Origin: Eledone cirrhosa
Taxonomy: Eukaryota
NCBI GenBank assembly: GCA_964016885.1
Contig: OZ024743.1
Coordinates: 82,584,001 to 82,648,000, forward strand
Reading direction: 5' to 3'
Length of the DNA: 64,000 nt
The stretch's first letter is position 1; every line of letters begins with the position of its first letter. A model generated the notes under the pieces. It was not told the DNA's origin, made no database searches, and was given only the letters and a program-made list of their open reading frames with translations. A program made the translations under genes and the position numbers. Shown here in pieces: positions 1,873 to 52,726 of this stretch.

Positions 1873-2812
1873 AAGTTATTGGGACACGTAGAATAAGGTG
1901 AAGCGAGCGAGACATGTAAACAAACAGAGATGGTAATGCAACTGAAAGAGAGGAAGAGAGGAAACAAGTCCGTGATATCTATGAACTTAAGTTCGATGAA
2001 TCATGGACCGTGTGAGATGTAAGCGAGAAAAGGATTTCACACAGGTCTGACGGGAGGAAGTGAGAGAGGGGGAGTAGCAGGGGATGAGTGAGTGAAAGCG
2101 TGAGGAAGAGGTCAGCTGAGAGAGAGTGACTAGCAGAGGGGGTGAAATGAAGGAGAGATATACAGGAGGAGAGAAGGGGATAGCAGTAAGAAAGAAACAG
2201 ACTGGTCACAGCGGAGGGAAAAATATAAATGAAAAATGGCGTGCTGCGTTGTTGCAAATGGGATACATATGAATAAAATTAGAGCGAGGAGACGTCCGTC
2301 ATCAGTGATCTTCCAGCCGTCATTGGTATTTCTTCGCATTAAAGATCATATACCTCTGGTTGGTTCAAGCAATAACTAAAACAAGTTATTGGGACACGTA
2401 GAATAGGGTGAAGCGAGCGAGACATGTAAACAAACAGAGATGGTAATGCAACGCCCGTCAGACCTGTGTGAAATCCTTTTCTCGCTTACATCTCACACGG
2501 CTCGGACGCGTCTGTCTCTTCTCGCCCATGATTCATCGAACTTAAGTTCACAGATATCACGGACTTGTTTCCTCTCTTCCTCTCTTTCCGTTGCATTACC
2601 ATCTCTGTTTGTTTACATGTCTCGCTCGCTTCACCCTATTCTACGTGTCCCAATAACTTTTTTTTGTTATTGCTCGCACCAGCCAGACGTATATGATCTT
2701 TAATGCGAAGAATGACGGCTGGAAGATCACTGATGACGGACGTCTTCTCGCTCTAATTTTATTCATATGTATCCCATTTGCAACAACGCAGCACGCCATT
2801 TTTCCTTTCTTT
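1873..2812. mobile_element. Two inverted, circularly permuted copies of a ~510-bp repeat monomer
   Basis: 70-bp direct repeat 1873-1942/2383-2452 (period 510); 2453-2812 is an inverted copy reading across the monomer junction; homolog at 17857-18402. Confidence 0.8.
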
Positions 2813-3200
2813 CACATATATATAAATATATATATATATAAATATATATATATATTTATATATATATATATATAAATGAGAAATTTGTCATACTTTAGGC
2901 AAATGTTTTGCCTTTTCTTTAGTGTTCCCCCTCCCGATATGGCGTATGAAAGAAACTAATTACCATAATCATCATCATCGTCAGCACCACTATAGTCATC
3001 ATTATTACTATCAATATCCTCACAATCACCACCAGCATCATCACCACTATTGCCATCACCATCACCGTCACTGTCAGTAATATTATTAATGCAAATTTGA
3101 TGATGTCCTTGTCTACCTTAGCTTTCTCTCTAAGAATCTAGCTTTTTTTCTGCTCCTCGTACTCATTTTATCTTATCTATACATACATGTATGAGTATGC

Positions 3201-3264
<64 letters not shown>

Positions 3265-3369
3265 ATTTATACAAATATGCAAGTATGTTTGCTTATATGT
3301 ATTTTTATATATAAGTAAATGTATATTATGTATATGTGTGCAATATATCTAGCTATCTACCTATATATG

Positions 3370-3422
<53 letters not shown>

Positions 3423-3580
3423 TTGAAGAGAGATATTACACACACATATATATATATATTATTTATTTATATATTATATATTTACTTATATATAAAAAAT
3501 ACATTTATGCACACATACTTGCATATTTATACATATTTATATAAATACATATACGCTTTCATATATATACATTTATATAT

Positions 3581-3627
<47 letters not shown>

Positions 3628-3859
3628 CATTTGTATAATTTCTACACATACAGATATAGGTGTGTATGTATATATATCTATAATATATATATTTCATGCA
3701 GCTCTCAGCTGAGATATAATATTGACCTAATACATACCTCAGTCCTCCATATTTTATCAACATAGCTTCACCATTGACAGCACCAAAAAAAGTCTCTTCA
3801 TATTTCTACCTTTATTTGTTTGTTTTTTAATTTGATTTATCTACTTATTGATAGCGTCG

Positions 3860-3936
3860 TTTTTGTGTCTGTTTGTGTTTTTCTTTTTGTTTTTTGCTTA
3901 TAGGCGCACGCACAAAGAAGCTCATATATGTGTGTG

Positions 3937-4011
<75 letters not shown>

Positions 4012-4082
4012 GCACATATATGAGGTTCTTTGTGCGCGCGCCTATAAGCAAAAAACAAAAAAAACACAAACAGACACAAAAA
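3860..4082. repeat. Inverted repeat (~70-bp arms) flanking a (TA)n tract
   Basis: tttttgtgtctgtttgtg...cttataggcgcacgcacaaagaagctcata and its reverse complement at 4013-4082, with a few mismatches. Confidence 0.85.
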
Positions 4083-4822
4083 TATATATATATATTTATA
4101 TATACGCACACACACATGCATATATGCGTACGTATATATATATATATATACACATACCTATATATACATATATGCGTGTGTATATAAATATATAAACACC
4201 CACACATATAAACACACATGTATTTATACAGGCTGTCTTATATACACTACATTCTATCCCATCTCAGTTTTCCTGTCAATCTAATTTGTCTACCTCTCAA
4301 TATATTTCAATTTTTTTTTATGTATGTATATGTACATGTGTGTGTGTGTGTGTTAATGCGTGCGCTTACCTTTGTAATACACACGCACTCTGTTGTGTGT
4401 GTGAGAGAGGGTGAAGAGGGGGAGTAAAGAAACGTAAGTGACGACTCTCTTCTGTCGAGGAAGGAACTTCTGACTCTCAGAATCTTAACATTCTGTGAGG
4501 CCTTTAAAGAATTAAACATGTTGGGTCAAACACACACACACATACATACCATCACATTCACCCACACACAGACGTATAGACTGGCGTACACACTGACATG
4601 CACACACACACACACGTGTGCACGCGTGCACATGCACCTAAATACTCATATATACACACATGTTTATGATGTATATATGTTTATTTATATATCTATGTAT
4701 ATATGTGCGTAGTGAAATGTTCATGTATGTTTGTAATGGTGTATATATGTGTGTGTGAAAGTGCTGTTATGTTAGTGCTTGTACGTATAGATATATAGAT
4801 ATATATATATATATATATATAG

Positions 4823-4873
<51 letters not shown>

Positions 4874-4874
<1 letters not shown>

Positions 4875-4925
4875 TGGCTTCTACTTGACTAGAACTGTTA
4901 CATTCGAAGGAAATCATCAGTTAGA
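4874..4925 (-). mobile_element. Fragment of family X (HHR-like CUGAUGA-UUUCCUUCGAAU-GAAACAGUUC)
   Basis: Matches copies at 40745, 43345, 45170, 52393, 58028 and 59505; GAAA mutated to GUAA here. Confidence 0.7.
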
Positions 4926-5316
4926 TGAGTTGATAACACAACCATATAAAGCAAACACTATTTCAAAGCTCAGATGTGGTTTTATAGTCCACAGCAAGAT
5001 AGGTAAAATACAGTTCAGAGTTTAATCCAATCGGTAAATTTGCAATCCCAGTAGTTTTACAATATCACAGAGTATATATATATATAATTGGTATTGGAAG
5101 CTTAAAGTGTCCGTATGCGGTAGGCCGTTTGAGCACTCGATGATGCTTTCATAGGAAAATCTGCTTCGTAGAATCAAGACGTATCTGAGGACCTTGCGAT
5201 TTTCAGAATCAGGTTCGATCATCACATTGATCGTGCCTCGAGCTGGTCGCCAGAGAAACGATTGTAATATGTCCAATGATTTCCATTCGTCGCAACACTG
5301 ATTCTCTTTTTTTCTG

Positions 5317-5351
<35 letters not shown>

Positions 5352-5357
<6 letters not shown>

Positions 5358-5483
5358 TAACAGATTAAAGTTTAAGCAAAGAATCGCTGCTTTCGCCCAT
5401 AACAGGATCTTCTGAAACTCAGAAGATCCCATTAAGGGTGGAAGCAGCGATTCTTTGCTTAAACTTTAATCTGTTATTTTAAT
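5352..5483. repeat. Fold-back palindrome (~60-bp arms) next to (TA)n, with a decayed HHR-like core
   Basis: ttaaaataacagattaaagtttaagcaaagaatcgctgc... and its reverse complement; CAGAAGA-stem-GAAA in the arms. Confidence 0.8.
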
Positions 5484-5572
5484 AAATATTTGCTCTACGG
5501 TTCTTATATATTCGATATATATTTATCCTTATCGAGTCCTCTTTGGATTTTAGTCTTCAAATTTATTATTAT

Positions 5573-5628
<56 letters not shown>

Positions 5629-5722
5629 GTAGAACACTGGAGGGTTATATCCGTAGTAGTAGAACACTCAGTCCATGGGACGAGTTAGGTAGAAGTAGTT
5701 CCACAACAGTTAGTTCACCATA

Positions 5723-17537: not shown

Positions 17538-17845
17538 TATATGAAAATAGGGAGAAAAAGACGATTATTAGGAAGAAAAATATTTTTTTTTCCTTTTATT
17601 TTTTTCTGGGTTAGAAAATGTTTAAAACAAAATATTTTACTTTGTGTGAAGTGTTAAGGTATTAGTTAATTTATTTATTAATTAACAATGGCATTTATTT
17701 ATTTATTTATATATTTAATAATTGTCTATTACCGGTTTCAGCATTTTATGCATTATCAAAGGGGGGAATTTGTATTGGTGTAAAATGTTGGTGATGTTTT
17801 ACATGTTAAGGAAATGGTGAAGAAAGAACCATTTCCTTAACATGT
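17538..17845 (-). mobile_element. ~300-bp element with U3-A8 HHR-like core (homolog 37795-38095 +)
   Basis: Reverse complement of 37795-38095; UUGAUAA-UGCAU..UGCU-GAAA-CCGG-UA at ~17727-17761; terminal hairpin 17801-17845. Confidence 0.75.
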
Positions 17846-37671: not shown

Positions 37672-37859
37672 CGTGTGTACATATATATATGTATACATGT
37701 ATATGCCCCACATTACGCCCCTCTTTTTTCTTTTTTCTTTTTTCTTTTTTCTTTTTTCTTTTCACTTCATAAACCTTGTTTGTAAATAACATTATTCTTT
37801 CTGAACCATTTCTTTGACGTGTCCAACACCACCATTCTACACCAATACATATTATTATA

Positions 37860-37894
37860 ATTTGATAATGCATAAAAATGCTGAAACCGGTAAT
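37860..37894 (+). ncRNA. HHR-like motif with U3-A8 core
   Basis: UUGAUAA-U-GCAU-aaaa-AUGC-U-GAAA-CCGG-UA^; weak stem I. Confidence 0.5.
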
Positions 37895-38099
37895 GGACAA
37901 TTATTAAATATATAAATAAATAAATTAATGCCATTGTTAATTAATAAATAGATCAACTAATACCTTAACACTTCACACAAAGTAAAATATTTCGTTTTAA
38001 TCATTTTCTAACCCAGAAAAAAGAGAGAAAGAGATAAAAAGGAAAAAAAAAATTTTTTTCTTCCTAATAATCGTCTTTTTCTCCCTGTTTTCATATATA

Positions 38100-43692: not shown

Positions 43693-43734
<42 letters not shown>

Positions 43735-43769
43735 TGTGAGAAAAACGACAGACCCTCCATCTCAACTCA

Positions 43770-43807
43770 CCTTTTGAAAAGCAGAAGAACTGCGAAACCG
43801 GTAAAGG
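43770..43807 (+). ncRNA. Type I hammerhead ribozyme, U3-A8 core variant (module Z)
   Basis: CCUU-UUGAAAA-GCAG-aagaa-CUGC-GAAA-CCGG-UA^AAGG, followed by AATAAA. Confidence 0.75.
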
Positions 43808-43870
43808 AACCAAATAAATATATATATTTAAAAAAAAATAAATAAGACTTCAGTTGCATTTTCGATTTCA

Positions 43871-44012
<142 letters not shown>

Positions 44013-52529: not shown

Positions 52530-52602
<73 letters not shown>

Positions 52603-52668
52603 AAAAAAGATGAAATCGAAAATGCAACTGGAGTCTTATTTAAAAAATATATATATATTTATTTGGTT

Positions 52669-52705
52669 CCTTTACCAGTTTCGCAGTTCTTCTGCTTTTC
52701 AAAAA
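52669..52705 (-). ncRNA. Second copy of the U3-A8 hammerhead (module Z)
   Basis: UUU-UUGAAAA-GCAG-aagaa-CUGC-GAAA-CUGG-UA^AAGG. Confidence 0.65.
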
Positions 52706-52726
52706 TAGAGTTGAGATGGAGGGTAT

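What the first reader, a model, noticed from the sequence alone, without database searches (positions are those of the whole stretch)
43770..43807. Two element families carry a compensatory U3-A8 hammerhead core
Seen: CCUU-UUGAAAA-GCAG/CUGC-GAAA-CCGG-UA-AAGG at 43770 (second copy 52669-52705 -), and UUGAUAA-GCAU/AUGC-GAAA-CCGG-UA at 37860 (second copy ~17727-17761 -). In both families C3 and G8 change together to U and A. Known: positions 3 and 8 form a Watson-Crick tertiary pair in the active HHR fold, and U3-A8 is a rare natural variant. Inference: the double change in both copies of two families suggests selection for catalysis. CUGANGA-based searches would miss these motifs.
Basis: partly seen in the sequence, partly recalled or inferred. 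Interest (0 to 1): 0.75.

Follow-up and report, generated by a model that had tools for sequence, protein, structure and literature searches.

The report
Penelope hammerheads with swapped core pair
The four motifs are truncated end-copies of two sister jumping-gene (Penelope-like) families whose predicted self-cutting RNA carries the already published U3-A8 core pair in about 20,000 genomic copies; the swap was likely inherited once, while rarer relatives that appear to have switched back to C-G and an abundant sister with a further core change form a natural test series.

Summary
U3-A8 minimal type I hammerhead cores sit at 43774(+), 52702(-), 37862(+) and 17759(-). Family B has an unmentioned U.U at 10.1/11.1 and a poor helix I; copy 52702 has a broken loop 3. 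Genome-wide, with the CCGG loop: U3-A8 20,565, C3-G8 22, U3-G8 150, C3-A8 203. Both families are 3' ends of Penelope-like retrotransposons (RT, CxxC linker, C-terminal GIY-YIG); a full-length copy has the motif in both 99%-identical pLTRs. Their proteins are 55% identical and group with four more U3-A8 families, so the 'double change in two families' is most likely one inherited event. Better evidence of selection came from relatives: helices covary, and two small lineages among U3-A8 copies carry G8, mostly with C back at 3 (one with an inserted A). Against strict catalysis: sister family D (about 12,000 copies) also has A13C, and no copy starts at the cut site. U3-A8 in Penelope hammerheads is published (Schistosoma, 2014), and this scan noted it before in this and other genomes. 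Cleavage is untested.

The parts
43770..43807 (+). Family A minimal type I hammerhead: U3 (43774), A8 (43779), palindromic ACCGGU helix III, predicted cut 43803|43804
43731..43881 (+). Family A pLTR fragment (solo, 5'-truncated at -73 from the cut, between (TA)n and (TC)n/(TA)n), 96% identical to the pLTR of full-length copy L230
52669..52706 (-). Decayed family A hammerhead (U3 at 52702; loop 3 CUGG; weak helix I)
52596..52724 (-). Family A pLTR fragment, 87% identical to L230, ending at the +82 end site
37862..37892 (+). Family B hammerhead core: U3-A8, U10.1.U11.1, helix II GCAU/AUGC, CCGG, weak helix I
37745..38092 (+). Family B pLTR fragment, 95% identical to L072, ending in (TA)n
17730..17759 (-). 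Second family B hammerhead core, almost no helix I
17543..17828 (-). Family B pLTR fragment, 87% identical to L072

Best explanation
These are minimal type I hammerhead motifs in the terminal repeats of two related Penelope-like retrotransposon families, with U3-A8 as the family state; the swap was likely fixed once in their common ancestor and likely kept because the RNA must still fold into a hammerhead that is predicted to cut weakly, and only as a dimer. Shown: motif, copy numbers, link to RT/GIY-YIG frames, presence in both pLTRs of a full-length copy, grouping of the U3-A8 families. Inferred: the transcript of a full-length or tandem element carries two motifs whose ACCGGU palindromes pair to build helix III; A8 pairs with U3 as G8 does with C3; cutting after GUA trims the element RNA from read-through transcripts, perhaps with help of the element protein. 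The four window copies are solo, truncated insertions and are likely inert.
For: Counts with CCGG loop: U3-A8 20,565 (control 30), C3-G8 22 (13), U3-G8 150 (25), C3-A8 203 (22). Family A exact motif 6,254 copies, 9 with C3, none of the 9 with G8. GIY-YIG (PF01541) in the frames upstream of A and B. L230: 938-aa open frame with DKG, YLDD, CX4CxxC and GIY-YIG, 753-nt direct repeats 99% identical, motif in both, 4,979 nt apart. Ten rows from six U3-A8 families (A, B, C, D, F14, G) are one side of a branch, SH-aLRT 99 with one unlabelled outside protein and 86 alone; C3-G8 family F9 lies elsewhere. Across these families helix II reads GCAG/CUGC, GCAU/AUGC, GAUG/CAUC, GUAC/GUAC, and loop 3 is CCGG or CAGAGCUCUG, always palindromic. 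The predicted dimer of window copy A forms helices I, II and intermolecular III at -22.5 kcal/mol against -7.5 per monomer. G8 lineages J and M lie among A8 rows, and one clade for both is rejected with the ribozyme masked (p-AU 0.0014). In M, C stands two letters before UGA in 14 of 18 copies and helix I pairs in that register (first pair Watson-Crick in 13 of 18, against 1 of 18 in the normal register). Published: dimer-dependent, low activity of PLE min-HHRs.
Against: No cleavage or expression data. 0 of 88 (A), 0 of 30 (B) and 0 of 30 (D) 5'-truncated copies start within 3 nt of the predicted cut, and 3' ends lie 82-200 nt beyond it (many loci were chosen by motif, so the sample is biased). 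Sister family D carries A13C in 34 of 34 copies in hand and about 12,000 genome-wide (12,826, control 724) and is young (pLTRs 98.8% identical). Family B has a weak helix I and a predicted alternative helix that hides the core. U3 can pair with A17 in A, like the C3-G17 pair presumed to be inhibitory. A pairwise scan of one hammerhead found only the G3-C8 swap rescued, other doubles low. In a Poseidon PLE, ribozyme mutants did not affect insertion in vitro. J is 2 C3-G8 and 2 U3-G8, all picked by pattern. The protein tree is a quick search with two gappy rows, and its outside proteins were found with the F9 query.
Confidence: 0.7

Rival explanations
1. The motif in this clade is no longer a working ribozyme; it is kept as a folded, dimer-forming handle bound by the element protein, so the core drifts (U3-A8, A13C, inserted A).
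For: A13C family D is among the most abundant and is young; weak helix I in B and D; no copy ends at the cut; cleavage dispensable for insertion in vitro; low U3-A8 rescue in a mutational scan.
Against: U4, G5, A6, A9, G12, A14, A15.1 and U16.1 are kept across families with 43-70% protein identity (partly imposed by the scan patterns); G8 returns together with C3; no high-copy family with a 3-8 mismatch was seen.
Confidence: 0.22
2. Families A and B each changed C3-G8 to U3-A8 independently.
For: Switches at 3-8 do recur in this genome (J, M); a distant K clade also has a UUGACAA core.
Against: All six typed U3-A8 families group together; A and B share the CCGG loop and alignable sequence at the motif; the nearest protein relatives of B are U3-A8 (D, N).
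Confidence: 0.06
3. Chance resemblance in AT-rich repeat DNA.
For: Monomer folding z-scores of the four 71-76-nt window pieces are weak (-0.8 to -1.7).
Against: Fixed position in pLTRs, covarying helices, reversed controls near zero.
Confidence: 0.02

Closest known systems
Minimal hammerheads (min-HHR) of metazoan Penelope-like elements, including the U3-A8 variant found via the Schistosoma mansoni Cercyon element (Cervera and De la Pena 2014, PMC4209133; parts 1-2 of 4 read)
   Same: Type I, short helix I, palindromic helix III, located in pLTRs, mostly solo copies, close pairs on opposite strands, U3-A8 core, predicted dimers
   Different: Other host and PLE lineage; at least 20,565 copies against about 1,300; 4-bp helix II; relatives with A13C and with C3 plus an inserted A, which I did not see in the parts read (supplementary figures not seen)
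Natural hammerhead core variants (Perreault et al. 2011, PMC3088659; passages and section 8 read)
   Same: Natural C3-G8 to U3-A8 covariation; U10.1-U11.1 mismatch; weak stem III; insertions near C3 in saltern variants
   Different: The M lineage has one extra letter between C and U4G5A6; A13C is not among the variants named in section 8
Neptune/Nematis-type EN+ PLEs (Craig et al. 2021, PMC8557442; abstract and passages)
   Same: C-terminal GIY-YIG, CX2-5CxxC linker, DKG motif, pLTRs, inverted truncated copies, two end sites (tail), (TA)n targets
   Different: Not Naiad (endonuclease is C-terminal); Neptune against Nematis not resolved because no reference sequences were in hand
Poseidon element PAc hammerhead (Frangieh et al. 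2024, PMC11167929; passages)
   Same: pLTR hammerhead with 3-8 pair dependence; insertions end beyond the cut site
   Different: PAc is C3-G8 and was tested: it cuts only with protein, and cutting is not needed for insertion in vitro

Membership tests
Type I minimal hammerhead (PLE min-HHR) | Core N3-UGA-N-N8-A ... GAAA ... UH with Watson-Crick 3-8 pair | tested here: met
   U3-A8 in 4 of 4 window copies and 20,565 genomic matches
Type I minimal hammerhead (PLE min-HHR) | Helix II closed by G10.1-C11.1 | tested here: met
   A: GCAG/CUGC; B: same pair behind a U.U mismatch, a known variant
Type I minimal hammerhead (PLE min-HHR) | Helix I of about 4-5 bp | tested here: inconclusive
   4 bp at 43770; 2 adjacent pairs (4 with a bulge) in the main B subfamily, 4 bp CAAU/AUUG in L251 and L261, 1 pair at 17759
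Type I minimal hammerhead (PLE min-HHR) | Palindromic helix III allowing dimers | tested here: met
   ACCGGU duplex -8.3 kcal/mol; dimer fold of A; not met for copy 52702 (CUGG, -3.2)
Type I minimal hammerhead (PLE min-HHR) | Self-cleavage after N17 | not testable with these tools
   No assay; no copy boundary at the site
Penelope-like element, EN+ | RT plus C-terminal GIY-YIG endonuclease | tested here: met
   PF01541 in A and B frames; DKG and YLDD in L230; relatives carry PF00078 and PF01541 (F9 query)
Penelope-like element, EN+ | Direct pLTRs with the hammerhead; inverted truncated copies; tail | tested here: met
   L230, L285; head-to-head pairs in 25 of 30 family A loci; A ends at +82 (41 of 100) and +143 (51 of 100)
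Neptune clade | CX2-5CxxC linker between RT and EN | tested here: met
   CX4CxxC at residue 814 of L230; shared with Nematis
Neptune clade | RT groups with reference Neptune rather than Nematis elements | not tested
   No named reference PLE proteins in hand
Naiad | N-terminal endonuclease | tested here: not met
   EN is C-terminal
Non-LTR retrozyme | Non-coding tandem repeats of 170-400 nt | tested here: not met
   A and B are pLTR ends of coding elements; only relative G forms 320-nt tandems

The most novel reading that the evidence does not exclude
One Penelope clade has walked the hammerhead active site through a natural series: U3-A8 as its base state, two separate returns to G8 (one as C3 plus an inserted A, one as plain C3-G8/U3-G8), and a 12,000-copy young family with U3-A8 plus A13C. 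Either A13C and the C-A insertion are new working hammerhead cores, or a very successful retrotransposon keeps the fold without catalysis; both outcomes answer whether these elements must cut their RNA.
Probability: 0.35. Interest if true: 0.6.

Novelty: new member of a known kind. Interest (0 to 1): 0.33.

Why it matters
The finding itself extends a published variant to another animal genome and shows that CUGANGA descriptors miss at least 20,565 motifs here, plus about 12,000 with GCAA. The role of hammerheads in Penelope-like elements is open. The related families give matched natural variants on known element backgrounds, which makes that question testable with a few short RNAs.

Tried and rejected
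Rfam scan of the window: the 150 rows shown of 396 were microRNA-family matches on simple repeats, no hammerhead. The repeat finder was swamped by a 40-bp tandem and microsatellites. Wobble-intermediate idea for lineage M: rejected, because its apparent U3-G8 copies have two letters before UGA and helix I pairs in the shifted register; for J it stays open (2 and 2 of 4, picked by pattern). Cut-site footprint in copy ends: none for A, B, D, F14; 2 of 16 for F9, both from one fold-back in L007. Naiad link: rejected. K clade (UUGACAA core, L232, L115) as an independent U3-A8 origin: not counted, no clear helix I. RNA: no RNA holder listed. Contigs of four coded runs laid on the family A pLTR listed no difference of 5% or more at positions 3 or 8, and one low-depth contig under another organism label held the motif unchanged; independence unknown. 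Papers not held: Lunse et al. 2016 on PLE hammerhead dimers, Nelson and Uhlenbeck 2008 (62), Martick and Scott 2006 (83), Scott 2013 (89); Lunse may list A13C or the insertion. Searches for A13C or GCAA variants gave nothing relevant, nor for cephalopod PLE hammerheads. Rows left out: I_L167 and 78 of 120 outside proteins from the protein tree; duplicate L312 from the DNA trees; A and D outgroups.

Full report
Setting. The window lies in a 3.0-Gb animal genome (G000:C4) rich in (TA)n. A structure scan of the window lists 11 C3-G8 and 3 U3-A8 type I hammerhead-like motifs; a fourth U3-A8 copy (17759) fails the helix I filter and was found by a looser scan. Earlier scan notes call the host cephalopod-like; I did not test that.

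Observation. Copy 43770-43807 is exactly as described. Copy 52702 has CUGG in loop 3 and a weak helix I. Both family B copies have an extra U on each side of helix II and little helix I. The window copies are short solo fragments: A 43731-43881 and 52596-52724, B 37745-38092 and 17543-17828. No PLE reading-frame remnant was found in the window.

Family state. Exact genome-wide counts for N3-UGA-N-N8-A ... GAAACCGGTA: U3-A8 20,565 (reversed control 30), C3-G8 22 (13), U3-G8 150 (25), C3-A8 203 (22). Family A's exact motif has 6,254 copies; 9 have C3 and none of those has G8. Single mismatches at 1% or less fit decay after insertion. In 94 stretches of 10 kb taken at fixed intervals, 42 motifs passed a strict scan: 32 C3-G8, 4 U3-A8, 6 others, and 0 in reversed sequence.

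What the families are. Upstream of A and B copies lie frames with a C-terminal GIY-YIG domain. L230 is a full-length A copy: 938-aa open frame with DKG, YLDD, CX4CxxC and GIY-YIG, and 753-nt direct repeats 99% identical with the motif in both. 25 of 30 family A loci hold head-to-head pairs, and 3' ends fall at +82 and +143 from the cut (41 and 51 of 100), the inverted-copy and tail pattern of PLEs. They are Neptune/Nematis-type by the linker; the two were not separated.

One origin, not two. A and B proteins are 55% identical. In a quick tree of 57 rows (15 from this genome, 42 of 120 outside proteins), ten rows from six U3-A8 families are one side of a branch (SH-aLRT 99 with one unlabelled outside protein, 86 alone); the C3-G8 family F9 is elsewhere. 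The double change in A and B is therefore most likely one inherited event. What does point to selection on the fold is that helix II and loop 3 change while staying paired or palindromic across these families.

Covariation inside the clade. The 22 C3-G8 and 150 U3-G8 hits included old low-copy relatives. A pattern for this group gave 375 matches; of the first 100 listed, 67 were U-A8, 27 A-G8, 1 U-G8, 3 A-A8 and 2 C-A8 (counted by hand). The 'A-G8' copies (lineage M) read helix I, C, A, UGAAGA: C stands two letters before UGA in 14 of 18 copies, and helix I pairs in that register (13 of 18 against 1 of 18). So G8 goes with a C and one inserted letter. Lineage J has C3-G8 in 2 and U3-G8 in 2 of 4 copies. 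In pLTR trees both lie among A8 rows, and with the ribozyme masked one clade for J plus M is rejected (p-AU 0.0014; groups were named). That these are returns to G8 rests on long-branch outgroups and on frame remnants beside L323 and L331; it is inferred.

Evidence against strict catalysis. Family D, the sister of B (70% identity), has U3-A8 plus A13C: 12,826 matches with a non-A at 13 (control 724), 97 of the first 100 being D with GCAA, and 34 of 34 D copies in hand; full-length L285 has pLTRs 98.8% identical. No truncated A, B or D copy starts within 3 nt of the cut (0 of 88, 30, 30, motif-biased sample). U3 pairs with A17 in the predicted fold of A, like the C3-G17 pair presumed to inhibit minimal hammerheads (PMC3884650, passages). 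In a full pairwise scan only G3-C8 rescued (PMC9901934, passages), although Perreault 2011 states that U3-A8 had been shown active in vitro. In a Poseidon element the ribozyme needed protein and was dispensable for insertion in vitro.

Mechanism. Most likely (0.7): a weak, dimer-dependent ribozyme. Two motifs in a full-length or tandem transcript pair through ACCGGU (predicted dimer -22.5 kcal/mol against -7.5 per monomer), A8 pairs with U3, and the RNA is cut after GUA, freeing element RNA from read-through transcripts. Sequence, location and grouping are shown; folding is predicted; cutting and its purpose are inferred. The main rival (0.22) is a non-catalytic folded handle. The window copies have no same-family partner on the same strand and are likely inert.

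Known or new. U3-A8 min-HHRs in PLEs are published, as are natural U3-A8 and U10.1-U11.1. Earlier notes of this scan reached the same reading in this and other genomes. New here are the counts, the single-origin result, the two G8 lineages and family D. I found no report of A13C or the C-A insertion, but Lunse 2016 and the supplements of Cervera 2014 were not seen and may hold them. Core numbering is the standard scheme, recalled. Verdict: real, new member of a known kind, interest 0.33.

Noticed in passing
L236, L246, L282-L287 (family D; not in the window): Sister family of B with U3-A8 plus A13C (GCAA), about 12,000 copies, full-length young copy L285, helix I only U-A pairs
   Followed up: partly
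L295-L302, L310, L315, L320, L324, L331, L332, L334, L336, L338 (lineage M): Old relatives with C-A-UGAAGA core: G8 with C3 and one inserted letter; helix I covaries TCG/CGA and TAG/CTA
   Followed up: yes
L287, L290-L292 (lineage J): Few copies with C3-G8 or U3-G8 among U3-A8 relatives
   Followed up: partly
L170-L199, L270, L288 (family G): U3-A8 hammerhead with 12-nt palindromic helix III and a long helix I, 683 pattern matches, often in 320-nt tandems (12 same-strand motifs in L288); retrozyme-like
   Followed up: partly
L232, L243, L262, L264, L115, L008 (K clade): UUGACAA-helix II-GAAAG motif 1-2 kb behind the frame of a distant PLE clade, without a clear helix I; possible second U3-A8 origin or rearranged hammerhead
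   Followed up: partly
window 7532, 20665, 34797, 36404, 44384, 52950 (+); 1714, 36897, 56402, 57459, 58371 (-): Eleven C3-G8 type I hammerhead-like motifs of several repeat families
   Followed up: partly
window from about 8171, at least to 9900: Tandem array with 40-bp period, 93 overlapping register copies, about 97% identical
   Followed up: no
window 37862 and 43774 (+): A and B copies share the ACCGGU palindrome on the same strand 5.9 kb apart, so cross-family dimers are possible in principle
   Followed up: no
L285 (- strand 2431-3795 and 3729-5690); L230: An upstream frame overlaps the RT frame in another phase in D, and apparently in A; possible frameshift
   Followed up: no
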